Source of the DNA: Trichoplax sp. H2
Taxonomy: Eukaryota
Direction: 5' to 3'
NCBI GenBank assembly: GCA_003344405.1
Contig: NOWV01000153.1
Span: forward strand, 124,001 to 183,299
DNA length: 59,299 nucleotides
Below the pieces are notes generated by a model. The model did no database searches and had not been told where the DNA came from. It was given only the letters and a program-made list of their open reading frames with translations. Of this stretch, positions 13,418 to 59,299 are shown piece by piece (position 1 is the stretch's first letter; each line of letters opens with the position of its first letter). The translations under genes were made by a program, and so were the position numbers.

Positions 13418-13581
13418 AGTGGGATAGGATGAAGTTTATTTGGATAAGATGAAAAATTTTCTATTTGCAGTTGATTGATTTCTAGTTCAATTGCGATCTT
13501 CAAGCAGTTGTTGAAATGATCAATTTGACTTAGTTTTAATTTACAAATTTAGATAATTTTCAGCGAAGGGAACTATCGAAT

Positions 13582-31600: not shown

Positions 31601-34600
31601 TATATGATGTAATACAGATTTTCTAGTAAATTCGTCTGTTTTTAATGTTAAACATTTGGCTTACGTTCACTCGCACTGATTAATTTAGTCTTTTTTCAAG
31701 AAATGCATGTATGATAATAGTAAAATGACTATCTGATGCTTCACTAAAATAAAATTAATCAACTTTAGTTCTAATATATAGTTTTGATAAATGAGATTGT
31801 AAATCTTTCATGTATGACTTATTAATATAACTGTAAGTAAGGCAAGCTGTTTCAATTAAGCATTTCTGTTTTATAATTTTCCGTAGTTATTCCACAACTG
31901 CAATATAATATTACATTCGTATAATTTCAAAGATTGACAATGTCAGTTTGAATGAAATTCTAATAATACATCATTCCAATTTAGTATGAATATAAAATAT
32001 ACCAGGTTCTACGCTTCAGATGTTAACCATAATTGCTGACTGTGATAACTTCAGTAAGAAAGCTGTTATTTTGGTCAAGGGTATACTGCAATCAATAATT
32101 CCTGAGTAAAGCTTGCCTCGAAGCTGTTGTTAATGTATATTTTTGACCAATTCTGATAGCATAACATAACTTTGTTTGTAATACTGAATCCTGGGTGTAA
32201 GACCTTAAAATTACATTATTGATTCAATCAATTATAAATCATTCCATCTCAAATTCCATACTTTATATTTGCGCGTAAAGAGACATGTATAAAAATTATC
32301 TATTAACTTAGTATTGTACCGTAAATTTAGTATCGAGGTTAAATTCTCATACAGTATTAGAATTAGTAGTACTCGTATACGCTATAGCAGAATAGGAAGC
32401 TCATATAGATGGATATGATTGTTTGCAAGTACTCTGGTAGGATAAGGTACTTTACTTTCCGTAGTTAAGGAAATGGGAGCATAGATGCATGTATTAGACA
32501 TTATGACAAAGCTACTACCGTTACTTAATCGATTATGCATTTGAGTATGTAAACGAGTAGATTGAGTAAATGGAGAATTCTTCTTATCGATAGCTTGTTA
32601 TAGATACAGTTACAGATCAGATTTCATTGTAGTAAAGCTTAATTCAGTTTTATACATGTAAATTCAGATAATCTGACTTATTGGGAACCATAAGAATTAA
32701 CTTTTCTATAATATGTTAGCAGGTTTGTCATATTTGATGTCAAGACTTAAATTGCCATCAGATCTAAAGACTGAATATACGAGGTAGTAATGATCCCAAT
32801 TATTTTTAATTAGCTATTTTATTGCGTTTTAACTTACATTAGCGACAAATTTTGTAACTCTTGCCATAGCGCGATTTAATGGTTTTAGTAAATCTTTCTA
32901 AGGATTAATAATAAAATCTAATATGAACTAATTTAATCGATCAGTAAATTAATTATTTTGATTTGCCCTAGCAGTGCTATTATCATTCAACTCCTAGATC
33001 TAAAGGTAACTTTGCCAAAATGCTTTAATTATGTTGCAAATGGTATTTTAAGTAATAGCTAATAGTACTTTATTGCTCATAGTAAGTCAAACAGTCTGAT
33101 CCGGCAAAATATTTGCGCTTTTAGACATTACGTTCATATCTCCTTAGTTATATTTATTCGGTATTTTACATTCAGGTAATCCAACATAATTTTAAGATTA
33201 CCGTGAAGCTACAGGCATTCCTCATCATTAACTGATTTTAAGTCGTCACGAGCAATATAATGATTCATTATTTCATGTATTTATGTGCATACATTCATTG
33301 AATCTAGTAATTAAAAATTGATCATACTAAGAGCTGTATTTAGAGAGAAAATTGCTATTTAGCATTTTAATTCAATACTTAATACTTCTATTTCAAGACG
33401 AACTACTGTAAGATAAGTTTCTCATTCGTCACTAAAATTATACCGAAATTTGCATAATTCAAAAGTAAGATTCCTAATTTTATGGCTGTGTATTAAAATG
33501 GTCTCACAATAGGCTTTTATTACAAAATTTTAAGAATAATAGAGCAATAATTAATTACTAAAAGAATCTAATCTAAAATCTAAAGTGCTTCGAGCTCAAA
33601 GCGAAATAAAATCTCTTCTCTCCATCAGCTCATCTCTGCAGGTTTCTTAAATACATTTCGCTAAATCCAATTATGACCACTAAATTAATCTACAATCAGA
33701 CTTAAGCCATCTAACGGTATACTTTTTTCTCCAATAAAAAAACATCATTATTTTCTACAATCTGTATCATTCTACTTAAGATATTATTACCCTTCCATTA
33801 ATGTCCAGCATCTTTCGGTGTTGGCCATCTTCTCAATTACAGTGTTTCTAATCACATTAATCTTATACCATAATTAGTCAACTGGCTGATAAAATTCATC
33901 AACAATTTCTAATATAGTAGCTATCAATCATCTAATATTAGCTTCACTATCGTATCTATTCTTAGTAATCTTACAGTATCAAATAAAGCCATTTACAATA
34001 TCAAATATAGCTATCCTTATGATCAAATATGGGATGCATCACTATAGGTTGATTGCTATATAACAATATACATTGACCGATCTCGCAATGTATGTATAGT
34101 AATATATGTGTTATGAACTCTTAAGAAACGCCGTTTCACTCTCTTAACATGCGCTGCTGTCGTAATGGTGGATCACGTACTGTAGACTTGTATTTATTTA
34201 CTTTACCCCGTTATTATGTTAAAGCTTTTGCAATTTGAAAGTGTGCAATGTAATGTGCGCTAGAGAGAGATAGAGCAGTTCTACCGATCCGCTGGCAAAA
34301 AAAAATAGCAAATTAACTTCATTTTCAAGGATAGAAGCGCGAGAGAGAACGTCGAACCAGATGATCAAGTCAGCAGTATATATGAATCAATCAAAAATGG
34401 ACCATCAACGCAGTGTTCCTAATCTTTATGCTTTCAAAGTGCTGAGTCGAACTCATTCAATTTCAGTCTATAACACATGTAACACTTTGATCTTATATAT
34501 ATATTCTAGGATCGAGGCCCTATAAGCCACCCTATCATAGACTCGATAGACTAAGGTTAAATACGAGTGCAGGAAGTAGAAAGTCTCATCACTCAATCGC

Positions 34601-34609
34601 TACAGTATT

Positions 34610-35980
34610 GTTTAAATTGGCTCTTTCTATGTCGGACAAGTCACTGCAAATTCGATTGTCAGTCCTTGGTCATAATTATCCCGATATTGCTCGATCATTT
34701 AGCCACATGGGAGCTTTCTATTATAACCAAGGCAAGTATGACTTACTATTTGTATGTATGATAAATCACTACAAATTCGATTGTTAGGCCTTGGTCACAA
34801 TCATCCCGATGTTGCTCTGTCATATAACCACTAGTCCGACATAGAAAGAGCAAATTTAAACTTGCTGTGAAGATATCCGATTTCCCCAATTTGATGATGA
34901 CTATCGGCAAGACGAGCATCATTTTCGTCTAACCATTAGTTTCATTTCCAACGATTCCTAACAGTCTTACAGTGCTCCGTTCCATTCCCCTTGGCATCTC
35001 TTAATCTCGCGTTGTCTGTGTAAAAACATTCCGCCATTCTTATTTCATCTTGTAGTTCAGTAGCCAAAGATTGTCCCTTTTCACTCCTTTCAATAGCTTT
35101 CATCAATTCATATTGTAAAGTATAAATGTCATAAATGCCAAGATCAATATCGCATCAAAGTTGATCAATATCCTCACTAGAATTATACAATACAACGATG
35201 CAATCTCATCTACAGCTTGTATATAACAAGATAGTTTCTTCGCCAACTTGAAGGCAATCTTGCATTTCTTGCCCTTTTTGTACAGTGATTGTATATGGGT
35301 ATGATTAGGATGTAAACTCTTAGAACAGACAGATTCATTATCAGCCGTCTTCATTCACTAAATTAAATGACATCAACTTCGAGTTAGCCCCTGATTCCAG
35401 CGACAAGTGAGGAGAAATAAAGTTCATATCAAGCTTCGTTACAACGTTCAATTAGTAAGCACTGTTATTGTCATCAGATTGATATTATCTCTATACATAA
35501 ATGATGTTGCAATGATTGTGCTTAAGTGCGAGTCGTATTTCAACACAAAACTAGAAATAATTCGACTATCAACAATTTTCGACAATTAATAAAACTACGT
35601 CTATAATCTCATCTATCAATTCTGATTGGAAGATTATCCTGTAATCATTCAATCAATCATTGTAGATGATAGCTGAAGATAACGCTACCAGTCAATTGTG
35701 TGCATCAATCAATGCCAAATTGAATCCAACTAGTAGATTACTTTACGCGTTTATTAACAAAATGCACTCCAGCTTACGCAAAGATTATAATAATAATTAT
35801 AATTACAGTAACCATCAAACGACAATCTTTTTGTTCTAATAGACAACAGTAAATGAATGCTAACCATATCAATGATGTTTTAAACAAGACTGATTGCTTA
35901 CAGCATAGTTTTAGATGACGTCGTTTAGATGTCTTCAATTTATAACGTGATGATTATCAAAATAGAATGGGTCACTTACC
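34610..35980 (-). pseudogene. Truncated pseudogene of the TPR-Roco family (N-terminal/TPR part only), with an internally inverted TPR fragment at 34641-34830
   Basis: 35354-34835 (-) resembles the N-terminus at 45874 (ADNESV...HTHIQSLYKKG...DARLADSHHQIG) but has stops and frameshifts. 34611-34830 reads DKSLQIRLSVLGHNYPDIARS on the + strand. The upstream intron and 5' exon donor (35980) match 45880-46560. Confidence 0.85.
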
Positions 35981-36029
35981 AATGGATGTTTTAAAAATAG
36001 GCTAATAAGAATATGACGATTTTGCTGAG

Positions 36030-38780: not shown

Positions 38781-39153
38781 TAAGCTTGTATTGTATTCCC
38801 TGTTTTTGAAGGGTTATCTGTTAGGATAGTTAAATTAATTTAGAAGAGTAATTTAAGAAGGTAAAGGCATTCTATAATAATTTTGTCTTGGCGCATATTT
38901 TATAAGTTCAATTTAAATGTACGATAAATTATAAGCTGTATTGAAGATGGCTTTGAGAATAGGCTGTTTGCATTCTAGAAATTTTGTTCGTTGTTCTTTG
39001 ACAGAATGATGTCATTCCTACCAATAGTTTGCAAAGCCCGCTGCAATCGGCTAATGCTAACATTGGGATGTGCCTTTTGGTACCAGTAATTGAGCAATTC
39101 CATTGCCTGGTTAAAGACTTGGTCGCGATTTTGTTCCATTATAACCTTAACAC
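38781..39153 (-). repeat. Gap-flanking duplicate (probable second haplotype) of the death-domain exon 3' part and 3' UTR, lacking the LTR insertion
   Basis: Matches 39174-39332 plus 39670-39883 with three substitutions; adjacent to the gap at 39154-39173; stop codon at 38975-38977. Confidence 0.85.
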
Positions 39154-39332
39154 NNNNNNNNNNNNNNNNNNNNTAAGCTTGTATTGTATTCCCTGTTTTT
39201 GAAGGGTTATCTGTTAGGATAGTTAAATTAATTTAGAAGAGTAATTTAAGAAGGTAAAGGCATTCTATAATAATTTTGTCTTGGCGCATATTTTATAAGT
39301 TCAATTTAAATGTACGATAAATTATAAGCTGT

Positions 39333-39664
39333 TGTCACACACCACTAGTGACAAAGTAGTCTACACACGCCAATCCTTGCGGAGAACGCCACTTACTAAT
39401 TTAAAGAGGCGAGATTAGCTATATCACCAAATAATTCAGTTCCAACAACCGAATACTATGGTATAATTATAGCGTCACAGATGATGTAGACGAGATAGTC
39501 AGAGATTTACTATCATTTATTACTGAAGGAATCTTGGCACCCAAGATTATAGTCTTCACAATTAAATATCAATTGAAAACTAGTTGACTATCTAACCGAC
39601 TAACGAACTAAAAAGGAATCTTCAGGCATCAGCCTTTTATAGTCTCGTCAGAAACTCCTTAACA
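39333..39664 (+). mobile_element. 332-bp solo-LTR-like element with 5-bp target-site duplication (orientation arbitrary)
   Basis: Termini TGTCAC...TTAACA. GCTGT is duplicated at 39328-39332 and 39665-39669. The empty site with a single GCTGT is visible at 38935-38939. Confidence 0.85.
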
Positions 39665-39704
39665 GCTGTATTGAAGATGGCTTTGAGGATAGGCTGTTTG
39701 CATT

Positions 39705-39967
39705 CTAGAAATTTTGTTCTTTGTTCTTTGACAGAATGATGTCATTCCTACCAATAGTTTGCAAAGCCCGCTGCAATCGGCTAATGCTAACATTGGGATG
39801 TGCCTTTTGGTACCAGTAATTGAGCAATTCCATTGCCTGGTTAAAGACATGGTCGCGATTTTGTTCCATTATAACCTTAACACAAATCGTTGGATCTAGG
39901 ATGGCCGCTAACTGTGGCCAGTCTGTGCCAATAGAGCTTGCAATAGGGTGAAAATACTTCCTAGGAT
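39705..39967 (-). CDS. Terminal exon encoding a death domain (paralog 1)
   Basis: DPRKYFHPIASSIGTDWPQLAAILD...NQAMELLNYWYQKAHPNVSISRLQRALQTIGRNDII follows the ankyrin/RIP/FADD-type death-domain pattern; phase-1 acceptor at 39968-39969. Confidence 0.88.
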
Positions 39968-42900
39968 CTATATAGTACAAGTAGAAACTTTACTATGAAG
40001 TACTATACGAGTATGTTGTAACAATTTCAATTGCAAATAAATTACTTGATTTTACATGATATAAAGTACAATATTTACATAATGAGCTCTTATGTCGCAA
40101 TTAGAGTTGAATAATCATCTGGTTCGCTATAATTATTTATGTAATGGTAATAATGGCATTAGCGACAGCACAGGTGGAACTGTACTTCTATTGTAAGACT
40201 AATAGAAATAAATGGCTCTAATTCGAATTTGAATAACTCTGTAAACGAACTACTTACTGGACAAACAATGTACAAATAAATTAAGATTGAATATTTTTAA
40301 TTCATAAATCATTATTTATTATGTTCAGTAGCTTACTAGTAGCAAGAATATTTTAATGACGATCTTAAAAATTCGTCAGTGATATCATTATCTAGTAAAA
40401 CTGTATGCGATCATATCATCAGTGGCAAACGTAGCTTAAAGAATTACATCCATTGACGAGGTAAGGTATTCCTATGTTAGAATTTACACGAAGTAATTGC
40501 TCTTAATCATATTTGAATCGATCTACAATTGGATTACTAAATGCAATTGAGAATGATTGATAGATATCAATTCAATAGAGGTTTACCTTCATCTTTGGTA
40601 TCTGTCCATCGGTCTAAAGTAGTGGAATAAAAATAGTAATAATCGATTAATAGTTCTATCGTTTAAGTAATCAATGCAGTAGATTAGTGCCCATAATTTT
40701 TGATAATAATCAACTATTGTTTACGCTATTACAAAATCACCTTATATTAAATAGTAAAATAGCTATGATACAGTACATTTATGTCTCTTTGCTTGCTCTA
40801 TCGTATGAATTTAGTTTATGATATCATAAAAAGTGATAATATAAGAATGAAGCTGCTGTTTATTCTCACATGCTTACCTATCCAGAATTTTTCATTATAA
40901 ATCACCCAATCGTTTAAAGATTGACTGGCAAATTCCATCTTACAATGCTTACATCGAATCCAATATTGATCTCCTTCCTTGTATTCTTCAGTTATACTTG
41001 TTGGTGTATTACATTCACTACATTTGACGAAATATCGACAATCAGCCCCTTTAAACTTAACCATCCTATCATTGACAGTGGAGATGAGTTTATTCTTGAC
41101 AATTTCGTGTGGCCGTTTGACAAATACAGAATTTTTAACTTTATCGATAATCGATTGACTCCTCTCGGGCTCATTTATTTTCTGATAGGAATATTGTAAA
41201 CCGATATGAGATTCCTCTTTCTTGACTACAAGATAGTGATTGTCATTTGCTAAATAATATTTGGCACATTGATAGTATAATTCTACGTCCGTATTATTCC
41301 ATTCCTTTAAACATGAAGATAACAAGCAATAATAAATTCCATCTGGAAGATATGCAATATCTGTATGCTCGTATCCAATGTAGAGCCAATCTGATTGATG
41401 ATATTTTGGTAAATCAAATGGCTTAACATCATATCGTAACAAGTATGGAACAAAGTATTGACATTCTTCGCCGTTGTCGTTCTTCTCATTTGTAATTGAA
41501 CATAGAATATCATAAGTATGCATGAGTGCCAATATAGTTTGCTTACTATTGTCATCTAAATTAAATTTATAAATAGCATGATCAATGTATGATCTTGATA
41601 ATTTTCCTGTTTGGCTGGCTATATCATAGTCACGTTTTATCTGTGCACTTCCTTGTACAAAATCTTGTAATTGAATAATAGAACGAAATATACTTAATAA
41701 CCAATCGACATTAGTTATAATAATTCCGTCGTCGCCTACTTTATCACAGTAGATGACTTCTCCTAAATCGTGTAGATACATTAGCATAGCGATTAATTCA
41801 TCATGGTTTTCATATAATCCGTATTGTTGAGACAAGGTTACTATTTGTTGCATTGTCATAATATTATGCACTTGAGAATGTCTAATTTGATTCATAATAG
41901 AAGATGCGGGTTGATTGTTAGTAGGGAGCGATTTATTTAATATTGTAGCCATGATATACCATCGAATAGGTATAGGATTCGTAATAAATGGCAGTGATTG
42001 TACAAATGCCTTAATGATACCATGTAAACGAAGACAACATTGTTGACGCAGCTTCTGTGTCGACGGAGTACTATCAAGAGGATTGCAATCAAAAATAATA
42101 CCAGAAGAATAGATATGACTGGCATAAGAAGGCATGTGAGACGTCAATGTAGACACAAATTGATTAAATCGAGTACGTCCATCTTCTTCATTGGTAATAC
42201 AATCGCCATGAGAAGCTACTAAAATAATAATAGGTAATGAATGCTGTGAAGGTGGTAAATCCTGTCCGTCTTCACTTTTAATGCTCACATCGATGGTACT
42301 TTGGCTTGTATGGCCAGCTATGATTGATGTAAGCCATTCTTGCATAGCTTGTAAATACGTCGTTTTGAGTGATTGGTTGTTCCTTGTTGTTACCTTGTCG
42401 TTAATGTCTTGCTTAATATTAAATACTAAAATATAAATACTATTGACGGAGATAAAGGGATAATGAGTAAGATGATAGACGGCATGACCTGCGAAATCCC
42501 ATATTTTAACATACTGATTTTTATCGTCTTTTTCTGTATTTTGATTTTCCATGGACGAACAGTAATATTGATCTAAGTCTCGTTTAGACTGTGGTTCTAT
42601 TGCAATCTCTGTCCTTGCTATCGCTGCATCTTGCGTAACGATATTCGTTGCAGAAGAATCGACACTGTGTTGTTGCCCATTTGACACAGATGGATTATTG
42701 GTTATAATGGGTTGATCTATTGGATCCATGTCGGTTACTTGCTGAATGATGTTATCTCGACTATCGATACTTGTTAGGGCTATGTCTTGTATGACTGTCG
42801 TGACTGTATCGTCTAGTATTTCAGTCCAATCACAACCCTCTAAGTTCATAATATTATAATATTCAGTCTCTACCATAATATCCGAATTCTCAGCCACTTG

Positions 42901-45874
42901 TGTTGGAGATGGACTGTTGAGTGGTTGCTTGGTAAATATTTTTCGAACAGAAGTTTTGCCCACATTGCGAGGGCCAATAAACATGCCTCGTATTAAACGA
43001 TTAAAGCAATGGCCATGTTTTAATGCTTTGCTATATGCATTGTAATATTTCTTTTCTTGCAAAGCTGTAGAACAACAAAATGCAGAATAGGGTTACGGTT
43101 ATCCATCGCTCTCTCGTCTACTACTGTATTAAAACTCTACTTACGTTTCTCTTGTACGTGTTGGTTGTTATGGCTGCCGTCGATCGTATTTGCTGGCGCT
43201 ATATCGTTGTTGGTTTGATTCAGTTGAAACCGTTCAAGGATACTTTTGATCCAATTTCTCGCTATTGATGTCGGCGATTTCTGCTGCCGGAGAGCGATTT
43301 CGATATTCTTTTTGGTCATTGTAACTAGGCCATCATTTCCGCTTAAGGTTGCGATATACAGTGACTTGTTAAAGTTATCCAGAGCCTGATCGATCTTGCC
43401 TTGGTCATGATAGACACATCCTATGTTGTGATATGAGTTGGCAACATCAGGATGATTGTGACCAAGGACTGACAATCGAATTTGCAGTGACTTGTTATGC
43501 ATCTCCACAGCCTGATCGATCTTGCCTTGGTCATGATAGACACATCCTATGTTGTTATATGACCACGCAACATGGGGATGATTGTGACCAAGGACTGACA
43601 ATCGAATTTGCAGTGACTTGTTATGCATATCCATAGCCTGATCGTACTTGCGTTGGTCATGATAGACACATCCTATGCTGTTATATGACCACGCAACATC
43701 AGGATGATTGTGACCAAGGACTGACAATCCAATTTGCAGTGACTTGTTATGCATATCCATAGCCTGATCGTACTTGCCTTGGTTATGATAGACAATTCCT
43801 ATGTTGTGATATGACCACGCAACATTGGGATGATTGTGACCAAGGACTGACAATCCAATTTGCAGTGACTTGTTAAACATCTCCACAGCCTGATCGATCT
43901 TGCCTTGGCTTCTATAGACAACTCCTATGTTATTGTATGACCACGCAACATCAGGATGATTGTGACCAAGGACTGCCAATCGAATTTGCAGTGACTTGTT
44001 ATGCATATCCACAGCCTGATCGTACTTGCACAAGTCCCAGTAGAGGCGCCCAATTTGATGATAACTATCGGCAAGACGAGCANNNNNNNNNNNNNNNNNN
44101 NNATACTTTTGATCCAATTTCTCGCTATTGATGTCGGCGATTTCTGCTGCCGGAGAGCGATTTCGATATTCTTTTTGGTCCATTTAACTAGGCGATCATT
44201 TCCGCTTAAGGTTGCGATATACAGTGACTTCTTAAAGTTATCCAGAGCCTGATCGATCTTGCCTTGGTGACTATAGACAACTCCTATGTTGTTATATGAG
44301 TTGGCAACATCAGGGTGATTGTGACCAAGGACTGACAATCGAATTTGCAGTGACTTGTCATGCATCTCCATAGCCTGATCGATCTTGGCTTGGTCAAGAT
44401 AGACACATCCTATGCTGTGATATGACCACGCAACATGGGGGTGATTGTGACCAAAAACTGCCAATCGAATTTGCAGTGACTTGTTATGCATCTCCACAGC
44501 CTGATCGTACTTGCGTTGGTCATGATAGACACATCCTATGCTGTTATATGACCGCGCAACATCAGGATGATTGTGACCAAGGACTGCCAATCGAATTTGC
44601 AGTGACTTGTTATGCATGTCCATAGCCTGATCGTACTTGCGTTGGTCATGATAGACATATCCTATGCTGTTATATGACCGCGCAACATCAGGATGATTGT
44701 GACCAAGGACTGACAATCGAATTTGCAGTGACTTGTTATGCATCTCCACAGCCTGATCGTACTTGCCTTGGTCATGATAGACACATCCTATGCTGTGATA
44801 TGACCACGCAACATCAGGATGATTGTGACCATCGACTGACAATCGAATTTGCAGTGACTTGTCATGCATATCCATAGCCTGATCGTACTTGCCTTGGTGA
44901 TGATAGACAAGTCCTATGTTGTTATATGACAGCGCAACATCGGGATGATTGTGACCAAGGACTGACAATCCAATTTGCAGTGACTTGTCATACATCTCCA
45001 TAGCTTGATCGTACTTGCGTTGGTCAAGATAGATAACTCCTATGCTGTTATATGACCGCGCAACATCAGGATGATTGTGACCAAGGACTGACAATCGAAT
45101 TTGCAGTGACTTGTCATGCATATCCATAGCCTGATCGTACTTGCCTTGGCTTCTATAGACAGCTCCTATGTTGTTATATGACAGCGCAACATCGGGATGA
45201 TTGTGACCAAGGACTGACAATCCAATTTGCAGTGACTTGTGCAACATCTCCATAGCCTGATCGTACTTGCCTTGGTCATGATAGACACATCCTATGCTGT
45301 GATATGACTGCGCAACATGGGGATGATTGTGACCAAGGACTGACAATCGAATTTGCAGTGACTTGTCATGCATATCCATAGCCTGATCGTACTGGCACAA
45401 GTTCCAGTAGAGTCGCCCAATTTGATGATAACTATCGGCAAGACGAGTATCCTTTTCGTCTAACCATTTTAATTTCATTTCCAACGATTTCTTACCGTCT
45501 TCCAATGCTCCGTTGAAATCTTCTTGGCATCTCTTAATCTCGCTTTTTCTTTGTAAACATTGAGCCATGCTCACTTCATCTTGCAGTTTAGTAGCCACAG
45601 TTTGTCCCTTTTCACTCCAATCAACAGCTTCCTTGAATTGATATTGTAAAGTGTAAATGTCACAAAGACCAAGATAAATATCGCATGCAAGTCGATCAAT
45701 ATCCACACTAGGATTCGACAACGAAGCAATCGCATCGACAGCTTGTGTATAACAAGATAGTCCGTCCACCAACTGGAAGGCAGTCTTGCATGAGTTGCCC
45801 TTGTCGTACAGTGATTGTATACGGGTATGGTGAGGAAGCCCACTCGTGGAAGAGACAGATTCATCATCAGCCAT
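39705..45874 (-). CDS. Roco protein: TPR array - Roc GTPase - COR - death domain; exons 45874-43145 (contains gap/duplicated array), 43064-40878, 40613-40587, 39967-39705
   Basis: All three introns are GT-AG, phase 1 and keep the frame: GAGAAAC|gtaagt...ctacag|CTTTGCAA; TGGATAG|gtaagc...ctttag|ACCGATGG...GAAG|gtaaac...atatag|ATCCTAGG. Roc motifs are GPRNVGKTS, WDFAGH and SHGD. The C-terminal death fold reads IASSIGTDWPQLAAIL...QAMELLNYW...LQRALQTIGRNDI. Confidence 0.85.
40587..40613 (-). CDS. 27-nt symmetric (phase 1-1) linker microexon, DRWTDTKDE
   Basis: Flanked by ctactttag| and |gtaaac; a same-length exon with its own splice sites sits at the equivalent place in the paralog (57492-57518). 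Confidence 0.7.
40878..43064 (-). CDS. Roc-COR exon (~729 codons)
   Basis: ORF 40816..43062: P-loop MFIGPRNVGKTS, G3 KIWDFAGH, YILVFN, IILVASHGD, COR-type PIPIRW and LMYLHDLGEVIY, YFVPYLL, terminal CSEC...CKHC. Confidence 0.92.
43330..44080 (-). repeat. TPR tandem array version B: 6 units of 126 bp/42 aa (kinesin-light-chain/nephrocystin-3-type TPR)
   Basis: RLADSYHQIG unit followed by five xVAxSYxxIGxVYxxQ units in ORF 43137..44183. Confidence 0.9.
44190..45445 (-). repeat. TPR tandem array version A: 10 units of 126 bp/42 aa
   Basis: RLADSYHQIG unit followed by nine xVAxSYxxIGxxYxxQ...KSLQIxLxVxGHNHP-type units in ORF 43925..45886. Confidence 0.92.
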
Positions 45875-46504
45875 CTTTTCCTGCACTCAATTCAATAGTA
45901 TGTGAGTTAAAGACTTGAACGACAGGTTAGAGACAAATAAGATTTAAATTAAGCTTCGTTACAACCATGAATGACTAATCATCGGATCGATATTATCTCT
46001 GCGTATTCATGAGGTTATGTCGGAATGGTTGTACTTGCGTGCTAGTCGTAGTTCAACAGAACAACATTAATTATTCCATTATACACAATTTTCAAGTATC
46101 AATAAATCAACTTCTACAATGTCGTCTATCAATTCCGCATGGAAGATTATCCGAAAATCATTCAATCAATCTCTGTCAATGATTACTGAAGACAACGCTA
46201 TCGGACAATCGTGTGCTGACATCAATCAATACCAAACTAAATCCAAGGAGTAGACTAATTTACGTGTACATTAATAAAATGCACTCCAGCTTACAAATAC
46301 ATTATACTCATAATCATAATAACCGTCAAACAACAATCGTTTTATCCTGATAGACAACAGCAAATGAATGCTAGCCACATCAATGATAGTGCAAAATAAG
46401 AAAGGATGCTTGTAATACAGTTTCGTTGGAGTCGTTTACCTATCTATAATTTCTATTTTTACTTGAAATACAATGTATAATGATGGATACCTAAACGGAA
46501 TAGG

Positions 46505-46600
46505 TCACTTACCAATGGATGTTTTAAAAATCGGCTAATAGAACAACTTGATGATTTTGCTGTGATGTAGATTTAATCCTATCAATCCGACTGCGCACTG
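46505..46600 (-). promoter_or_regulatory. Probable non-coding first exon and donor of the Roco gene
   Basis: aaaacatccattg|gtaagtgac (donor at 46512) is conserved in the pseudogene copy at 35979; acceptor gtgcag|gaaaagATG at 45881. Confidence 0.6.
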
Positions 46601-46904: not shown

Positions 46905-48805
46905 GACCCGATACAAATTGATTAAATGGAGTTTTTCAATCTTCTTGTTTTGTAATACAATCGCTATAAGAAGCTACTAGAAATAATAATAAGTAATGAA
47001 TACTGTTCATCTTCGCTATTAAAGTTTACATTTATTGTACTTTGCCTTCTATGGCTACCTATGGTCGGCGTAAGCCATTCTTGCATAGCTTGTAAATAAG
47101 TCATGTTCAGTGATTCGTTCTGTCTTGTTCATACCTTGTCATTAATGTCTTGATTCATATTAAAGACTACAATATAAATACTATTAGCAGAGATCAATGG
47201 AGAATGATTAACATGATAGATGGCATGACCACCGAAATTCCATATTTTAACATATTGATTATTATTACGTTTATTGGTTCTTTGATCGATGATAGACGAA
47301 CAGTAATATTGAGTTAAGGCGAGTTTAGACGCTGATTTGATTTCAATCTCTTTCAATGGTATGGCTACTTCTTTTGTAGCATTACCAACTATAGGAGATT
47401 GCACATTGTCTTTTTTGTAAATTTGGCAATGGTAGGTTATCTGTTAAAACGGGTCGATGTATTGGATGCACACGGGTAATTTACTGATTGATATTCTCTT
47501 GACTATCGATGCTTGTTTTGACTTTATCGTCTACTACCTCAGTCCAGTCACAACTCTTTCAATTATGAATACCATACTATTCAGTCTCCACCATGAAATC
47601 AGAATTCTCAACCACTTGTGTAGGAGATTGATTAATGATTAATACTTGTTGAATAAATACTTTTCTAACAGAAGATTTACCCACATTGGGAGGGCCAATA
47701 AACATGCCTCATATTAAATTATGATAGCAATGACCTTGATTTAATGCCTTGGTATACGCATAGTCATATTCCTTTTCTTGTAAATCTGTAGGATAAAAAG
47801 TACAGAATATTGTTGTTATGATATAGGACTGTATTTATGGTAGTCTTGAATACTAGTGCATTAAAATGCTGTTGTCGATCGACGAAGCTATATCTTGGAC
47901 GTGTTGATTAACATCATGATTATCTTTCCCTCTTTTCGCCATTGACGTTGACTGATTATACTGTGATCGTTGCACCAGGGGAGTAATGGCCATATTGTCT
48001 TTCGTTTTTTTTCCAACTTCGGGATGATTTACGCCTAAGGCTGGTAGTATAATACTGAGTGACTTATTATACATATCCAGAGCCTCATGGTGCCTTCCTT
48101 GTCTAGAATAGATACTCCAATGTTGTTCTATAAGAGCCCAATATCATGATGACTGTGACCAAGAAGTAATAATCGAATCTTGAGTGGCTTGTTATATGTA
48201 GAAAGAGCCAAATTATACTCGCCTCGTTTCTCATAGACAACTCCAATATTGTTATATAACATCGGGATGATTGTGACCAAGAACTAATAATCCAACTTTA
48301 AGGGATTTGTCATACTTAGAAAGCGCCTTTGTAGACTTGCCCTGATGACTGTAGATGCGCCCAATCTGCGGATAACTATCAGCAAGGCGTGGATCATTTT
48401 TAATGGAAACATTTTAATTTCAAGTTCAGCTATTTATAACAGCCTTCCAGTGTTTCTTTCCAATCCCATTACCATCCCTTAATCTTACTTTGTCTGTCTA
48501 ACTATTCAGCCATTTTCACTTTATCTTGCAGTTAAGTAGGCAGAGATGTCCCTTTTCTTTCCATTCTTTGCTTTCTTCCGTTCTTTTTGTAAAATATAAA
48601 TATCGCACATATCAAGACATATATCGCATCGAAGTCGATTAATCTTGACACAAGGATTGCAAAACACTTGAATCTCATCTAGAGCTTGCGTAGAATAAGA
48701 TAATCCTTGGGTTCAATTGTAGGTAGTCTTGTACTTTTCACCATTTTCATACAATGATTGTATATGAGGAGGAATTATAGAGTGGATGGATTTATTATCG
48801 GCCAT
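46905..48805 (-). pseudogene. Decayed TPR-Roc paralog, truncated within Roc (no COR or death exon)
   Basis: ATG at 48805 in the same aagATGGC context, PRLADSYPQIG, degenerate TPRs (LGHNHPDV, LGVNHPEV), homologous acceptor at 47786, MFIGPPNVGKSS, KIWNFGGH, YLQAMQEWLT; multiple stops and frameshifts. Confidence 0.88.
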
Positions 48806-49399: not shown

Positions 49400-52300
49400 T
49401 CAAACTTACCAATTTAATTTTTTCATTACTGGCTAATGATAGTTTGATGTTATTTTGGGGCCGAAATGTAGGTATAATTCTATCAATTGCACTGTATGCT
49501 GCTTATTCTAACGATGAGCAAAGTCAGCAAATAGAACCAAATAGAATTGAAGATGGCATACGAGTAAACTTCTACCCACTAAAAATCCTATTACATTAGG
49601 CAAAAAATGTTCCCTACAACGTAGCCAGTTCAAAGGTAATCGATTTTCAACCTTCAATATGCGCGTACAAATATAATGGTAGTGAAATGATATTCTGTCA
49701 TGTGCATGTTGTTGGATATGTCCAAATTCATGATTCTTCAAGGTGCCATTTTCAGCCCAAGTGTCCTATGAGATACTATTGAAACTATGCAGCAATGGCT
49801 GTGCCAGGCTTGTACGGGTTCAGAGCAAATGTCATTTCTTCGCTTGCCTTCAAGGCTTCGTTGTGGTTAAAGTTGGGCAATTGGTTATTTTGTTGACCGT
49901 AGTTTGTTATTTCAGGGCGCAGCAGGCACGACTGTTGACCGATGGCCCATAATCTACAGCATTAACTTTACTTCATCATCCAGTTCAAAAACTTTATATA
50001 CTGTACTCTACTCGATACAAGTAGCAAGAACTACTAAATTTGAAGAGAGAGGACATATCATAATGTCCAACAAAATGGTCAATATGATACTGTTAAAGGC
50101 GTAGTCAATATTTGCCATTGAAATCATCCTTTATTAAAAGCATTTTATTGAGTAACAACACCGCACTCAATAGTGTTAGGTAGGGCATACCAAGTAACCA
50201 AATATAATCATCACTTCTTTGGATTGTGTAGCCATTTTTTGATCGTCATTTTAGACAACTTTATAGACGAGCAGATTTCCAATTGTAAAGTATTTGCTGA
50301 CACAGCTCTAAACTAGCTATCCAATCAAGTCACCATCAGTCAGTCATGTTGGTCATTAACGAATTTACAAGAGAACTGATTTTACGTTGCATAAGAATGC
50401 ATTTCACAACTTTCACCAAGGTACATTTTCTACATGCAGTGAGGAATCCTTTCAACTGGTATATGGCCATAGCCATTTTTAACGATTTACTATTAGATGG
50501 TCATTAACATTGAATTCACTGCTGTTTATATACCAAAGACACAAAGTTTGCAATCTACTTTGAAAAACGAATGGATAAAATAGTCATAGAGTTATCGGTG
50601 ATGGTGGCATGATTTAGTACGGCGATTTAGTCATCAGACTCCTTCCACATCGATGATGATTGCACCAACACGACGACTGCAAAATATTCAAGTCGAGGCT
50701 GATATCAGAAAGGATTAACACTAGTTTTATAGCCAAGAAATGCGTGGAGGAGTTTGCAGTACGCTGCAGGACTCGCTTTCACTCACCATTACCTCTAAAC
50801 ATGCTGAAAATTACGGAATCGACTACAGAATTGGAACGGTCTCCATGCTGGCATATGCCATTCAATACCTTACTGGATAAAACTTCTTAAACTGTTTCTA
50901 CATCAACTTGAGGCCAATGCAATAAGCAACATTAAAATGGTTGATCGATTGAACCAAGTCTAATTGCATTGGCTTGCCATTGCACGCGTAGACCATAGCG
51001 TGGACAACTGGGCATGCAAAAATGGAGACGAGGAGGCATTAATAAGTACACTGCCATTAAGGGATTCAATATATTATATACTGCGCTATAAGCGATTCAA
51101 ACTAGGATTTAGGGCATTATGCTAACTCTGCTGNNNNNNNNNNNNNNNNNNNNGCAGGACTCGCTTTCACTCACCATTACCTCTAAACATGCTGAAAATT
51201 ACGGAATCGACTACAGAATTGGAACGGTCTCCATGCTGGCATATGCCATTCAATACCTTACTGGATAAAACTTCTTAAACTGTTTCTACATCAACTTGAG
51301 GCCAATTGCGTTGGCTTGCCATTGCACGCGTAGACCATAGCGTGGACAACTGGGCATGCAAAAATGGAGACGAGGAGGCATTAATAAGTACACTGCCATT
51401 AAGGGATTCAATATATTATATACTGCGCTATAAGCGATTCAAACTAGGATTTAGGGCATTATGCTAACTCTGCTGTCTGCTTACTCGATATTTTACAAGA
51501 GTCTAATTTGATCACAAAGATTAAGTTAGAATATGGACTACTACATGAATTTATCATCTATAGATGACTGTGCAATGGTGAATTTGGACACACTACTATA
51601 CTGTAGTAGCAAGATACACTAATTCTGCATTAAAAACTGCACTGAGTAATCATGCACATCCATAGCTGCAAATTGCAATTCCTGTCTGTTAGGATTACGA
51701 TTGATTTGTTGGCATTCCATGGGCTAAAACTTGATTCTATCCAGTTTTTCTTCTACTGTAGTGAGCTACAAATACTTTCTGCCAGTCTTGGCTAACCTTG
51801 TCTTGATCGAAGCGATAGAATGCGATGAAATTGGGCAGAAAACCTGACTGAATGATCAAATACACCAGTTGCAATAGATGCCAATACCATGTCCATACTG
51901 TAATTTTCCAAGCTATGGCTACACAAACTAAATCGCTACATTGTTGGTTATAAAGTTGGATCAATCTTTTAACCATAGAGGTATTTTTTCACTTGTATCG
52001 TTTTAATTGATTTTAACGTTGGCTCATGGACGAAATTGTTTCCAACGCCTTTTCTACTCATGCAAGTTCTCAATCTATCGTAACTTGCAGTATATTGGCT
52101 GTGAAACTGGCGAAAAATAGCGACTTCTGTGGCTGTTGATACTATGGCGGGACCTACTAATGTAAGAACTGTGTAGAAAGTATGAGACTTGATCATTGCA
52201 GATCTACAAATACTCCTATTGCAAAAAAAGCGGTAAAGCTAAGCCAATTTACCTCACTTACATTACTATTACTTGCCTAGCGATTGTGCCTTCCACAGTC

Positions 52301-56658: not shown

Positions 56659-59299
56659 TCATTCGGTCATTTTTTGTTCGACTTCGTCAGCTAAAGCATT
56701 TATTTCCATCTTACGTAAAGCTTCAACCACTGCAGAGATTTTAGCATTCATCCCAGCTTTATCTTTCCACGATTTTAGAATATTGTGCACTTTATCGTAA
56801 CGTCCTTCATTCTGGCTTGATTTAATTTCATTAATCTTTGTGTCCGTTAACTTTAATAACACTCCAAAACGAACTATATGGGTTCCATTAAGTTTTGCTG
56901 CTATTAAATCGAAGCATGCTCTCTCTATTTTTATGTAAAAGCAAAGGAAAAATTCATGAAACAAAATTGGCAATATTAGCATCGTTTCAAGTCATCAGTA
57001 ATGTATCTGATCTAGAACACAGGCCTAAGAATGATATTAAGCAATTTTCCTTCACAATAACTATAAATTTATTCCCATGATCTTAACATGCAATCCACTG
57101 TTAATATTAAATGATATTATTGATTCTCAGTCACCATATTTTGCTGATTCAATTTCTTAATAGTTATGAGTACTTATTAAAGCTTGCTGGACGAGCTCTT
57201 TTAAAATTAAATTAAATCGGAATGGTAATTTATCAATGACCGTTTACTATATTGAGTGATTTTGGTAGTTAATATACCATATTGTAATTACAATCCCAAA
57301 ATGTTCATTATGCAATATAATAAGCTAGCAAAATTTTATGCGCTCACATAATCAGCGACAAAAATATTATAACTATTTAAGGCAGGATCTGTTGTAATAT
57401 TTGCTCTAATTCGTACTTATATCAATCTATAAATTAATTGCTATATGCATTTTTGAAATGACTGGTAGATATCAATTCAGTCGAGGCTCACCTTTATCTT
57501 CTGCATATATCTTTCTTTCTAAAGAAATGAGGTGAAAATAGGAATAATCAATTAGTAGCCCTATCATAACTTTTTTAAAACAGATGATAGAGTTGCAGGC
57601 ATGCAAATGAAATGTATGATTCTCTAAAGAGTTTACGAAGATAGTTTTCTCCCTTTATCTTTCTAGGTGCTTTTACAAGCAGGAAATGCTATCTATGGTA
57701 ATTTCTATACGTTGCATAAAACGACGAAACTAATTGGCTATTAAACAATTCAATATTAATGACTTATCATGCACTAACGTTAAAAAACAAAATACTATAG
57801 GGAACAGCGATAAATAAAATCCAGCCGTTTCTATTTACTACACAAATGAAATGCAGTAGATGAAGTACTCATTTTGAATTATTACAATCCATAATACATT
57901 TTCAGTAATAAGAAATATACTAAAATCAGAAAATATTATTGCAGTTAAATAGTAAAATAGCTATGATACAGTACATTTATGCCTCTTTGCTTGCTCTAGC
58001 GTATGGCTTCAGTTTATTATATCATGAAAAGTGATAATATAAGAATGAAGCTGCTGTTTATTCTCACATGCTTACCTATCCAGAAATTTTCATTATAAAT
58101 CATCCAATCGTTCAAAGATTGACTGGCAAATTCCATCTTACAATGCTTACATTGAATCCAATTTTGATCTCCTTCCTTGTATTCTTCGGTTATACTTGTT
58201 GGTGTATTACATTCACTACATTTGACGAAATATCGACAAGCAGCCCCTTTAAACTTGACCATCCTTTCATTGACAGTGGAGATGAGTTTGTTCTTGACAA
58301 TTTCGTGTGGCCGTTTGACAAATATAGAATTTGTAACTTTATCGATAATCGATTGACTCCTCTTGGTCTCATTTATTTTCTGATAGCAATATTGTAAACC
58401 GATATGAGATTCCTCTTTCTTAACTACAAGGTAATGATTGTCATTTGCTAAATAATATTTGGCACATTGATAGTATAATTCTACGTCCGTATTATTCCAT
58501 TCCTTTAAACAAGAAGATAACAAGCAATAATAAATTCCATCTGGAAGATATGCAATATCTGTACGCTCGTATCCGATGTAGAGCCAATCTGATTGATGAT
58601 AGTTTGGTAAATCAAATGGCTTAACATCATCTCGTAACAAGTATGGAACAAAGTATTGACATTCTTCTCCGTTGTCGTTCTTCTCATTTGTAATTGAACA
58701 TAGAATATCATAAGCATCCATGAGTGCCAATATAGTTTGCTTACTATTGTCGTCTAAATTAAATTTATAAATAGCATGATCAATGTAGGATCTTGATAAT
58801 TTTCCTGTTTTGCTGGCTATCTCATAGTCGCGTTGTATCTGTGCACCTCCTTGTACAAAATCTTGTAATTGAATAATAGAACGAAATATATTTAATAACC
58901 AATTGACATTAGTTATAATAATTCCGTCGTCGCCTACTTTATCACAGTAGATGACTTCTCCTAAATCGTGTAGATACATTAGCATAGCGATTAATTCATC
59001 ATGGTTTTCATATAATCCGTATTGTTGAGACAAGGTTACTATTTGTTGCATTGTCATAATATTATGCACTTGAGAATGTCTAATTTGATTGATAATAGAA
59101 GATGCGGGTTGATTGTTACTGTTAGTAGGGAGCGATTTATTTAATATTCTAGCCATGATATACCATCGAATAGGTATAGGATTCGTAATAAATGGCAGCG
59201 ATTGTACAAATGCCTTAATGATACCATGTAAACGAAGACAACATTGTCGACGCTGCTGCAGTGTCGACGGAGTACTATCAAGAGGATTGCAATCAAAAA
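56659..59299 (-). CDS. Second Roco paralog, 3' part (5' end beyond window): Roc end/COR exon >59299-58076, microexon 57518-57492, death-domain exon 56924-56659
   Basis: COR region is ~93% identical by eye to paralog 1, with the same TGGATAG|gtaagc donor. Phase-1 microexon ERKIYAEDK. Terminal exon ERACFDLIAAKL...RFGVLLKLTDTKINEIK...VHNILKSWKDKAGMNAKISAVVEALRKMEINALADEVE has a death-domain pattern. Confidence 0.87.

What the first reader, a model, noticed from the sequence alone, without database searches (positions are those of the whole stretch)
43330..45445. TPR units are near-identical except at a hypervariable stripe on one helix face
Numbering the 42-aa unit from xVAxSY, diversity is concentrated at positions 4 (Q/L/R/W/N), 7 (H/N), 8 (S/N), 11 (C/A/V/L/Y/I), 14 (H/R/L/S) and 15 (D/S/H/N). 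The scaffold KSLQIxLxVxGHNHP is almost invariant even at DNA level. The i/i+3/i+4/i+7 spacing puts these residues on one face of helix A, the expected ligand groove of a TPR superhelix. Variants recur in different combinations (WSYHS, WSYNN, WSYNS, RSYNS, NSYNN, NSYHN), as expected from shuffling between units. This parallels the high-internal-conservation repeats of fungal NLRs and suggests a combinatorial recognition code.
Basis: partly seen in the sequence, partly recalled or inferred. Interest (0 to 1): 0.8.

Follow-up and report, generated by a model that had tools for sequence, protein, structure and literature searches.

The report
Hypervariable TPR repeats, placozoan ROCO genes
Near-identical 42-residue TPR repeats in a Trichoplax-type gene for a TPR–GTPase–death-domain protein differ mainly at the residues that touch the bound peptide in related solved proteins, the pattern seen in fast-evolving recognition receptors of fungi and brown algae.

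Summary
The core observation holds, with two corrections. First, 43330-45445 is not one array. A 20-N assembly gap (44083-44102) separates array A (start codon, 10 units, tail) from array B (6 units, tail, intron, Roc-COR exon, Death exon). A and B are either two tandem paralogs or two versions of one gene. Second, 17 of 42 positions vary, not six. Through the Pfam register they equal canonical TPR positions 2, 5, 6, 9, 12 and 13, the ligand contacts in HOP. They also match cargo-contact positions in the solved KLC1-JIP1 complex; 9 of 9 KLC1 contact positions vary here. Omega at the six codons exceeds 1 (LRT p=6e-4); 25 codons never change residue. Unit shuffling is unresolved, and a "recognition code" is untested. 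The host is a placozoan TPR-Roc-COR-Death (ROCO) family in a tandem cluster. That architecture is published; I found no report of the hypervariable, internally conserved TPRs. Best reading: a fast-diversifying ligand sensor, convergent with fungal NLR repeats. The order and number of units need long reads.

The parts
45446..45874 (-). Copy A, N-terminal region (ATG at 45874; 143 aa of degenerate TPR-like helices before the first regular unit)
   Evidence: Open frame from the ATG. AF2 gives six helices at residues 14-137. The stretch is 83% identical to the N-terminus and first units of Trichoplax sp. H2 protein P0001. Contigs of RNA-labelled run X16 lie on 45472-45949; this is weak, because DNA can be present in that library.
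44186..45445 (-). TPR array A: 10 units of 126 bp (A0 cap, A1-A8 internal, A9 C-terminal cap)
   Evidence: Units in register. TRF period 126. Pfam TPR_12 486.9 bits and TPR_10 382.8 bits. AF2 helix-turn-helix repeats at pLDDT above 95.
44103..44185 (-). Tail of copy A, cut by the gap
   Evidence: 83 nt with 3 differences from the tail of copy B, all within the first 5 nt; the 78 nt next to the gap are identical.
44083..44102 (.). Run of 20 N (assembly gap) that splits the reported interval
   Evidence: five runs of exactly 20 N in the window. The flanks duplicate each other (43240-44029 vs 44103-44892, 92.7%; 43359-44080 vs 44726-45447, 89.8%).
43323..44082 (-). TPR array B: 6 units (B0 cap begins just after the gap, B1-B4 internal, B5 C-terminal cap)
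   Evidence: Pfam TPR_12 273.9 bits. B0 differs from A0 by 7 nt and B5 from A9 by 8 nt.
43145..43322 (-). Tail/linker of copy B up to the splice donor
   Evidence: Open frame. GTAAGT starts at 43144.
43065..43144 (-). Inferred 80-nt intron (GT...AG)
   Evidence: The sequence shows GTAAGT at 43144 and a pyrimidine tract plus CAG ending at 43065. The frame is kept across the join. Paralog P0001 reads straight through the same junction. No spliced read or contig was seen.
40873..43064 (-). Roc-COR exon of copy B's gene
   Evidence: Pfam Roc 41.9 bits (cut-off 27) and COR-A 41.6 bits (cut-off 35.3). 88.8% identical to P0001 residues 413-1145. A P-loop of G-x4-GK[ST] type and a DxxG motif are visible in the translation.
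39708..39989 (-). Death-domain exon downstream of copy B
   Evidence: Pfam Death 40.8 bits (cut-off 22.6). ORF listed.

Best explanation
The interval encodes the N-terminal TPR sensor arrays of a placozoan (Trichoplax-lineage) family of TPR-Roc-COR-Death-domain proteins (ROCO proteins) that sits in a tandem cluster.

The arrays are built from recently amplified 126-bp units of the kinesin-light-chain type (Pfam TPR_12/TPR_10). Units are gained and lost; counts of 5 to 12 are seen among close relatives. Residue changes accumulate faster than synonymous changes at the helix-A positions that line the concave groove and contact the bound peptide in solved relatives. A 25-codon scaffold is held constant.

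Inferred mechanism. The groove of the TPR superhelix binds a variable ligand, most likely an extended peptide or protein surface. Each unit contributes its own contact signature. Binding is passed to the Roc-COR GTPase/dimerisation module. The C-terminal Death domain then recruits downstream death-fold partners. In function this would be an NLR analogue, with Roc-COR in the place of the NOD module.

Shown here: the repeat anatomy, the domain order, the position-specific excess of non-synonymous change, and the match of variable positions to known contact positions.

Inferred: ligand binding, signalling, and any immune or allorecognition role.

Unresolved: whether arrays A and B belong to two tandem paralogs (about 45%), are two haplotype or assembly versions of one gene differing by four units (about 45%), or reflect a wrong scaffold join (about 10%).
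For: ORGANISM AND FAMILY. Of 26 proteins found with the Roc-COR exon (E<=1e-3, 4786 candidates), every one that carries a name is from Trichoplax sp. H2 or T. adhaerens. The best full-length hit, P0001, is 89% identical. Pfam on P0001 and P0147 gives TPR, Roc, COR-A and Death. The window itself holds TPR_12/TPR_10, Roc, COR-A and Death.

CLUSTER. Further copies or remnants lie at 57945-59299 (+ Death exon 56668-56931), 46909-48805 and 34584-36027.

SELECTION (12 internal units).
- 32 non-synonymous against 7 synonymous minimal events.
- The six a-priori contact codons carry 15 events on 15.3 N sites. All codons together carry 7 synonymous events on 25.9 S sites. The rate ratio is 3.6, P=0.003.
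- Nei-Gojobori dN at the six codons over all-codon dS is 5.5. For the other 36 codons it is 0.91. The 25 residue-invariant codons have pN 0 with pS 0.083.
- GY94 ML omega is 50 (the upper bound) for the six codons. LRT against omega=1: 2dlnL 11.7, p=6e-4.

REPLICATION. In 19 internal units (of 25 units) from P0001, P0003 and P0147, the six highest-entropy positions are exactly 14, 15, 11, 4, 8 and 7. Spearman rho with the window profile is 0.81.

STRUCTURE REGISTER.
- Pfam TPR_1 profile position 1 aligns to unit position 3. The six positions are therefore TPR 2, 5, 6, 9, 12 and 13, the HOP ligand contacts (PMC1261162, passages).
- KLC1 residues named as JIP1/TorsinA contacts (PMC6214655, passages) fall at unit positions 4, 7, 8, 11, 12, 14, 15, 19 and 33. 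All 9 of 9 vary here (hypergeometric P=5.5e-5).
- The KLC1-N343/KLC2-S328 specificity switch is unit position 7. The neighbouring unit position 8 is N/S polymorphic here.
- AF2 gives pLDDT 93.8 and pTM 0.89. Foldseek hits include peptide-bound TPR solenoids: APPBP2 with degron, and KLC1 and KLC2 with cargo peptides.

DIVERSITY AND TURNOVER. All 16 of 16 units carry different six-residue contact signatures. Unit numbers are 10 and 6 in the window and 5, 8 and 12 in paralogs. Identity within arrays (0.898, 0.901) equals identity between arrays (0.898).

PRECEDENT. The same pattern is read as diversifying recognition in fungal NLR TPR/ANK/WD repeats (PMC4986451, passages). [quoted passage not shown]
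Against: - The sample is small: 12 internal units and about 26 synonymous sites.
- Over all 42 codons, pN/pS is 1.45 with bootstrap 95% range 0.67-3.92; 17.6% of bootstraps are at or below 1.
- The other 36 codons give omega 1.27, not different from 1 (p=0.54). Taken as a whole, the non-contact part is therefore not a uniformly constrained scaffold.
- 8 variable positions (1, 17, 23, 24, 26, 27, 35, 37) are not among the KLC1 or HOP contact positions.
- The ML tests assume one tree, which recombination between units would violate.
- Across TPR proteins in general, the same positions are the most variable (PMC1261162). The 40-sequence alignment consensus also has no majority residue at 4, 11, 14 and 15. 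The location of the variation alone therefore does not show adaptation.
- Mean aa identity of units is 0.80. [quoted passage not shown]
- The order and number of units cannot be checked. Public-run contigs inside the arrays are shorter than about 130 bp and bridge nothing. Short-read assemblies of such repeats are known to omit or create units (PMC12222747, passages).
- I have no coordinates of the AF2 model. Exposure was inferred from register, not measured.
- There is no splice or expression proof and no functional data.
- Kamm et al. [quoted passage not shown]
Confidence: 0.6

Rival explanations
1. Neutral drift on a young repeat. The units were amplified recently. The groove-facing and other exposed positions are simply the least constrained, so they drift, with no adaptive diversification and no special ligand variability.
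For: The same TPR positions are the most variable across 6,887 TPRs of all kinds (PMC1261162, passages). The consensus of the 40-sequence alignment has no majority residue at 4, 11, 14 and 15. Omega for the 36 non-contact codons is 1.27, not different from 1. Overall pN/pS is 1.45 with a bootstrap range that includes 1.
Against: Omega at the six a-priori contact codons is significantly above 1 (LRT p=6e-4; event-rate ratio 3.6, P=0.003). Drift would give about 1 at most. 25 codons show synonymous change but no residue change (pS 0.083, pN 0). All 16 of 16 units have different contact signatures.
Confidence: 0.15
2. Housekeeping adaptor arrays. The TPR groove binds the animal's own conserved partners, as kinesin light chains bind cargo adaptors. 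The differences between units and paralogs reflect sub-functionalisation to different endogenous motifs, not recognition of non-self.
For: The closest solved relatives by sequence are kinesin light chain TPR domains (5oj8, E=2e-71 for a 3-unit query). In these, single N/S changes at the equivalent position tune the choice of endogenous cargo (PMC6214655, passages). ROCO proteins such as DAPK1 and LRRK2 act in endogenous signalling (PMC4104024, passages).
Against: Units within one protein differ with omega above 1. Unit number changes between close paralogs, from 5 to 12. The cluster holds degenerate and rearranged copies, which points to birth-and-death turnover. These are traits of recognition families rather than conserved adaptors. 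The architecture ends in a Death domain.
Confidence: 0.15
3. Assembly artefact. The mosaic of unit variants, or part of it, was created by mis-assembly of near-identical 126-bp repeats. The A/B duplication around the gap is a false duplication.
For: Three of the five 20-N gaps (39154, 44083, 51134) have flanks that duplicate each other. Short-read assemblers omit or create units in such repeats (PMC12222747, passages). No contig of four public runs bridges any unit boundary region longer than about 130 bp inside the arrays.
Against: The same six positions top the entropy ranking in 19 units from three separately annotated Trichoplax sp. H2 proteins. Contig pieces of public runs match array and tail segments without a difference, for example 44107-44192, 44972-45064 and 45132-45213 in X1 and 44215-44287 in X5. 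X1 may, however, be the sample the window was assembled from. Both arrays keep an open frame. An artefact could change unit order and number, but would not by itself place changes on contact codons.
Confidence: 0.05

Closest known systems
Highly internally conserved TPR/ANK/WD repeats of fungal NLRs (Podospora anserina; Dyrka et al. 2014, PMC4986451; solved 42-residue repeat protein PDB 4y6c/4y6w)
   Same: The repeats are 42-residue KLC-like TPR units with high internal conservation. Repeat number varies. Positive selection falls on positions on the concave side (passages). A 3-unit query from the window hits 4y6c/4y6w by sequence at E about 1e-14.
   Different: The chassis is Roc-COR plus a C-terminal Death domain, not NACHT or NB-ARC. 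The repeats are N-terminal, not C-terminal. The host is an animal. Mean aa identity of units is 0.80 here. Allelic repeat-number polymorphism was not shown here, only differences between paralogs or arrays.
Brown-alga LRR-ROCO and NB-ARC-TPR candidate receptors (Ectocarpus, Saccharina; PMC3341825, PMC11378527)
   Same: These are ROCO GTPases, or 126-nt/42-aa TPR modules, in clustered birth-and-death families. [quoted passage not shown]
   Different: In the algae each repeat is its own exon, and diversity is ascribed to exon shuffling and alternative splicing. Their ROCOs carry LRRs, and their TPRs sit on NB-ARC. Here the whole TPR array is one exon, sits on a ROCO, and is followed by a Death domain.
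Kinesin light chain TPR domain (KLC1/KLC2; PDB 5oj8, 6fuz, 6swu, 3zfw)
   Same: It is the closest solved relative by sequence (E=2e-71) and among the Foldseek hits. It has the same 42-residue register. Cargo peptides contact unit positions 4, 7, 8, 11, 12, 14, 15, 19 and 33, and an N/S switch at unit position 7 sets specificity (PMC6214655, passages).
   Different: KLC has six diverged repeats and no Roc, COR or Death domain. The database names 'Kinesin light chain' and 'Nephrocystin-3' on the Trichoplax proteins reflect TPR similarity only.
Trichoplax ROCO repertoire (Civiero et al. 2014, PMC4104024) and DAPK1-type ROCO proteins
   Same: At least 17 ROCO genes with CARD, death, TPR and LRR domains were listed for T. 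adhaerens (passages). The order repeats-Roc-COR-Death is that of DAPK1.
   Different: No kinase domain was found in P0001 or P0147. TPR stands in place of ankyrin repeats. In the passages I read, that paper does not mention internal repeat conservation or hypervariable positions.

Membership tests
TPR repeat, KLC-like 42-residue type (Pfam TPR_12 / TPR_10) | Profile match above the curated cut-off | tested here: met
   Array A: TPR_12 486.9 bits (cut-off 30.1) and TPR_10 382.8 bits (cut-off 27.5). Array B: 273.9 and 218.3 bits.
TPR repeat, KLC-like 42-residue type (Pfam TPR_12 / TPR_10) | Helix-turn-helix units stacked into a solenoid | tested here: met
   The AF2 model has pLDDT 93.8, with paired helices of 16 and 19 residues every 42 residues. 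Foldseek hits are TPR solenoids at E down to 7e-15.
ROCO proteins | Roc GTPase domain directly followed by a COR domain | tested here: met
   Exon 43064-40873: Roc 41.9 bits (cut-off 27) at residues 170-221, COR-A 41.6 bits (cut-off 35.3) at residues 389-542. This is met for the gene that carries array B. For array A the downstream part is lost in the gap.
ROCO proteins | GTP binding and hydrolysis, COR-mediated dimerisation | not testable with these tools
   Only a P-loop-like G-x4-GK[ST] motif and a DxxG motif are visible in the translation.
NOD-like receptors / STAND (NACHT or NB-ARC + repeats) | Central NACHT or NB-ARC nucleotide-binding oligomerisation domain | tested here: not met
   Pfam found no NACHT or NB-ARC match in the window exons or in P0001. 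For P0147 only the best 25 of 31 matched families were shown, and none of those is NACHT or NB-ARC. Roc-COR takes that place. The protein therefore works like an NLR at most; it is not one.
Highly internally conserved (HIC) repeat sensors as defined for fungal NLRs | High identity between the repeats of one protein | tested here: inconclusive
   Mean nt identity is 0.899 and aa identity 0.799 among the 12 internal units. TRF gives 89-90% matches. [quoted passage not shown]
Highly internally conserved (HIC) repeat sensors as defined for fungal NLRs | Repeat-number polymorphism between alleles or strains | not tested
   Only differences between arrays and paralogs were seen (10, 6, 5, 8, 12 units). 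Whether A and B are alleles is open.
Highly internally conserved (HIC) repeat sensors as defined for fungal NLRs | Positive diversifying selection at positions on the binding surface | tested here: met
   Omega at the six contact codons is above 1 (LRT p=6e-4). Variable positions include 9 of 9 KLC1 contact positions. Caveats: 12 units, a single-tree model, and no model coordinates.
DAPK1-type ROCO | N-terminal protein kinase domain and ankyrin repeats | tested here: not met
   No kinase or ankyrin family appears in the full Pfam list for P0001, nor among the 25 of 31 families shown for P0147.
Kinesin light chain (the name some sources give to the paralogs) | KLC architecture: heavy-chain-binding N-terminal coiled coil plus six TPRs and nothing else | tested here: not met
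   The full-length relatives carry Roc, COR-A and Death domains after the TPRs. In the AF2 model the N-terminal 143 residues are TPR-like helix pairs.

The most novel reading that the evidence does not exclude
Arrays A and B are two alleles of one TPR-Roc-COR-Death gene in a single clonal animal. They differ by four whole units and in the contact signature of every unit. On that reading, placozoans carry a hyperpolymorphic ROCO-based intracellular receptor family. It would diversify by unit gain, loss and exchange plus selection at groove residues. This would be an animal counterpart of fungal het/NLR loci, built on a GTPase instead of a NOD. It would also be a candidate for placozoan non-self or microbe recognition.
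Probability: 0.25. Interest if true: 0.8.

Novelty: new variant of a known kind. Interest (0 to 1): 0.6.

Why it matters
Rapidly diversifying, internally conserved repeat sensors are well documented in fungal NLRs and in brown-alga ROCO and NB-ARC genes. They are rare in animals: 0.8% of metazoan ANK/TPR/WD repeats in the Dyrka et al. survey.

Placozoans lack LRR-bearing NLRs. [quoted passage not shown]

A TPR-Roc-COR-Death family whose groove residues evolve faster than silent sites would offer a concrete candidate for intracellular recognition in one of the simplest animals. It would show a third chassis, a ROCO GTPase with a Death domain, arriving at the same design. It would also make the question testable, because the contact positions to mutate are named.

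Practically, the result warns that this locus is not reliably assembled. Gene models there, named 'kinesin light chain' or 'nephrocystin-3', are misnamed.

Tried and rejected
- Own-genome search: no genome is held for this window.
- Laying contigs of four public runs on 42800-45950 at 97% likeness. No joints and no contig bridging the gap or the intron. Pieces inside the arrays are under about 130 bp. Run X16 (RNA-labelled) had no cover on 42800-43435. Run X4 had none on three bins inside the arrays. None of this says anything about absence, copy number, splicing or expression.
- Nucleotide-level neighbour-compatibility (PHI-like) test. It gave P<=4e-4. I reject it as evidence for shuffling, because sites within one codon are linked by multi-base codon changes. 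The codon-level repeat is significant only at k=2.
- Measuring burial or exposure on the AF2 model. Coordinates are not passed to the script machine, so only the DSSP register and a helical wheel could be used.
- The 'near'-length homologue search with array A returned mostly TPR-only proteins of bacteria, rotifers and others. It served only as alignment depth for AF2.
- First Nei-Gojobori script stopped on a division by zero; redone.
- Considered and dropped: a second AF2 job on paralog P0003 to look for a self-ligand in the groove. Without coordinates or PAE it could not be read.
- CpG mutation bias at codon 4 (CGG/TGG/CAG/CTG) could inflate changes there. Not tested.
Full report
**1. What is at the coordinates**

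The minus strand of 43137-45886 carries open frames full of 42-residue repeats. TRF finds a 126-bp period at 43359-44029 (5.3 copies, 90% matches) and at 44241-45393 (9.2 copies, 89% matches). The window holds five runs of exactly 20 N. One of them, 44083-44102, lies inside the reported interval.

Read 5' to 3' on the minus strand, the interval contains:
- an ATG at 45874 and 143 residues of degenerate helices;
- ten units, A0-A9 (45445-44186), of which A0 and A9 are diverged caps;
- an 83-nt non-repeat tail;
- the gap;
- a second array that starts again with a first-unit-type cap, B0-B5 (44082-43323);
- the same tail;
- a GTAAGT donor at 43144 and a CAG acceptor ending at 43065;
- a 748-residue frame.

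So the finding covers two arrays, not one.

**2. What the gene is**

Pfam gives TPR_12 and TPR_10 for both arrays. It gives Roc (41.9 bits, cut-off 27) and COR-A (41.6 bits, cut-off 35.3) for the exon 43064-40873. It gives Death (40.8 bits, cut-off 22.6) for an exon at 39708-39989.

With the Roc-COR exon as query, 26 proteins passed E<=1e-3 among 4786 candidates. Every named one is from Trichoplax sp. H2 or T. adhaerens. P0001 (1246 aa, 89% identical) and P0147 (1477 aa) have the order TPR, Roc, COR-A, Death. P0001 reads through the junction that I infer as an 80-nt intron. No genome is held for the window, which fits a eukaryote.

More copies or remnants of the family lie in the window:
- 57945-59299, 95.9% identical to 40747-42095, with its Death exon at 56668-56931;
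- a degenerate copy at 46909-48805;
- a rearranged remnant at 34584-36027.

This is a tandem cluster of placozoan ROCO genes. Civiero et al. 2014 (passages read) listed at least 17 ROCO genes with CARD, death, TPR and LRR domains in T. adhaerens, so the architecture is known.

**3. Check of the observation**

I used the 12 internal units and dropped the four caps, which differ from internal units by 29-62 nt.

Residues vary at 17 of 42 positions. The highest entropies are at 11 (2.13), 4 (1.73), 15, 17, 27, 14, 26 and 1.

Only 7 synonymous events occur, at codons 6, 7, 21, 24, 36, 41 and 42. Twenty-five codons never change residue although they do show silent change (pS 0.083). Mean nt identity is 0.899. 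It is 0.696 inside the six codons and 0.932 outside.

**4. Is it selection?**

| Codon set | NG86 result | GY94 omega | LRT vs omega=1 |
|---|---|---|---|
| All 42 | pN/pS 1.45 (bootstrap 95% 0.67-3.92; 17.6% of bootstraps <=1) | 2.2 | p=0.02 |
| Six flagged | dN over all-codon dS 5.5 | 50 (the bound) | 2dlnL 11.7, p=6e-4 |
| Other 36 | dN over all-codon dS 0.91 | 1.27 | p=0.54 |

The six codons can be defined a priori (section 5). Their non-synonymous event rate is then 3.6 times the synonymous rate of the whole unit (P=0.003).

Caveats: few sites, one tree assumed, and possible recombination.

**5. Where the variable positions sit**

AF2 on a 40-sequence alignment gave pLDDT 93.8 and pTM 0.89. 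Helix A spans unit positions 42/1-15 and helix B spans 19-37. On a helical wheel, positions 1, 4, 7, 8, 11, 14 and 15 fill a 140-degree arc opposite the invariant positions.

Pfam TPR_1 profile position 1 aligns to unit position 3. The six positions are therefore canonical TPR positions 2, 5, 6, 9, 12 and 13. Magliery and Regan 2005 (passages) give exactly these as the HOP ligand contacts. They give 2, 5, 9, 12, 13, 33 and 34 as the most variable positions, all on the concave face. Unit position 1 is TPR 33.

A 3-unit query hits kinesin light chain 1 at E=2e-71. Pernigo et al. 2018 (passages) name the KLC1 residues that contact JIP1/TorsinA. I checked the register residue by residue against the alignment. 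These contacts are unit positions 4, 7, 8, 11, 12, 14, 15, 19 and 33, and all nine vary here (P=5.5e-5). The KLC1-N343/KLC2-S328 specificity switch is unit position 7, and unit position 8 here toggles N/S.

**6. Independent replication**

From P0001, P0003 and P0147 I took 25 units, 19 of them internal. The entropy profile correlates with the window's at rho 0.81. Unit numbers are 5, 8 and 12. More distant paralogs (P0004, P0005, P0192 and others) have diverged scaffolds.

**7. Shuffling**

All 16 units carry different contact signatures, and 73 of 120 informative codon-site pairs are incompatible. But adjacent codons 7 and 8 already show all four combinations. The codon-level neighbour test is significant only at the shortest range (P=0.004, 0.17 and 0.47). 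The stronger nucleotide-level result is inflated by linkage within codons.

Exchange or turnover of whole units is supported indirectly. Unit number varies. Identity within arrays equals identity between arrays (0.898/0.901 against 0.898). Recurrent mutation at a few allowed states is not excluded.

**8. One gene or two?**

The flanks of the gap duplicate each other: 43240-44082 corresponds to 44103-45447 with a 504-bp (four-unit) difference. Two other gaps show the same pattern:
- at 39154, the flanks match at 100% and 98.6%, which duplicates part of the Death exon;
- at 51134, the flanks match at 87%.

This fits contig ends of two haplotypes left unmerged. It also fits real tandem paralogs with the middle missing. 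Cap-unit divergence (5.6-6.3%) is close to that between neighbouring paralogs' Roc-COR exons (4.1%).

Public-run contigs are too short to decide. Short-read assemblies of such repeats are unreliable (PMC12222747, passages). Some array pieces are reproduced without a difference in public runs, though the best holder may be the source sample.

**9. Mechanism and comparison**

The best reading is a diversifying ligand-binding groove on a ROCO-Death signalling body.
- Shown: anatomy, domain order, position-specific omega above 1, and the match to known contact positions.
- Inferred: ligand binding, GTPase-coupled switching, Death-domain signalling, and any immune role.

The protein is not an NLR, because no NACHT or NB-ARC was found among the Pfam families shown. 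It is not a kinesin light chain, and it is not DAPK1-like in having a kinase.

[quoted passage not shown] The differences are the chassis, the single-exon array and the animal host.

Three searches of the paper library returned no paper describing hypervariable or internally conserved TPRs in placozoan ROCO genes. Kamm et al. 2019 (passages) does not mention Roc. Supplements and figures were not seen.

**10. Verdict**

This is a new variant of a known kind. Interest is 0.6.

Noticed in passing
window 38781-39989: The Death-domain exon (39708-39989) is partly repeated at 38975-39153, right after the 20-N gap 39154-39173. The flanks of the gap duplicate each other (38781-38939 = 39174-39332 at 100%; 38934-39153 vs 39664-39883 at 98.6%). 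This is likely an unmerged contig overlap with a 337-bp indel.
   Followed up: partly
window 50766-51475: The flanks of the 20-N gap 51134-51153 also duplicate each other (50766-51133 vs 51154-51475, 87%), the same pattern as at the TPR gap.
   Followed up: no
window 34584-36027: This is a remnant of another family member. An N-terminal exon plus upstream DNA (34885-36027) is 75.6% identical to 45416-46562. A TPR piece at 34629-34831 lies in the inverted orientation next to it, which suggests a rearranged pseudogene.
   Followed up: no
window 46909-48805: A degenerate paralog lies just upstream of copy A. Its TPR, Roc and COR pieces are 35-60% identical to P0001 and are spread over several frames and HSPs. 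It is probably a pseudogene.
   Followed up: no
window 56668-59299: The next family member is cut by the window end. Its Roc-COR exon is 95.9% identical at DNA level to that of copy B. Its Death exon at 56668-56931 scores Pfam Death 43.7 bits.
   Followed up: partly
P0002 (Trichoplax sp. H2 partial protein, 488 aa): This is the 99%-identical relative of copy B's COR region, from a 2,252-bp contig. It repeats its own C-terminal ~100 residues in tandem. The orthologous locus therefore seems to be troubled in that assembly too.
   Followed up: no
window 12302-13435 (-) and 8937-9425 (+): These are unrelated neighbours: a single-exon rhodopsin-family GPCR (7tm_1, 158 bits) and a weak globin match (23.4 bits, cut-off 22).
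   Followed up: no
units A1-A4, window 44816-45319: Units alternate in pairs. A2 is closest to A4 (9 nt differences) and A1 to A3 (12), while neighbours differ by 14-18. This hints at duplication of a two-unit (252-bp) block. An even-number preference was noted for fungal TPR arrays.
   Followed up: no
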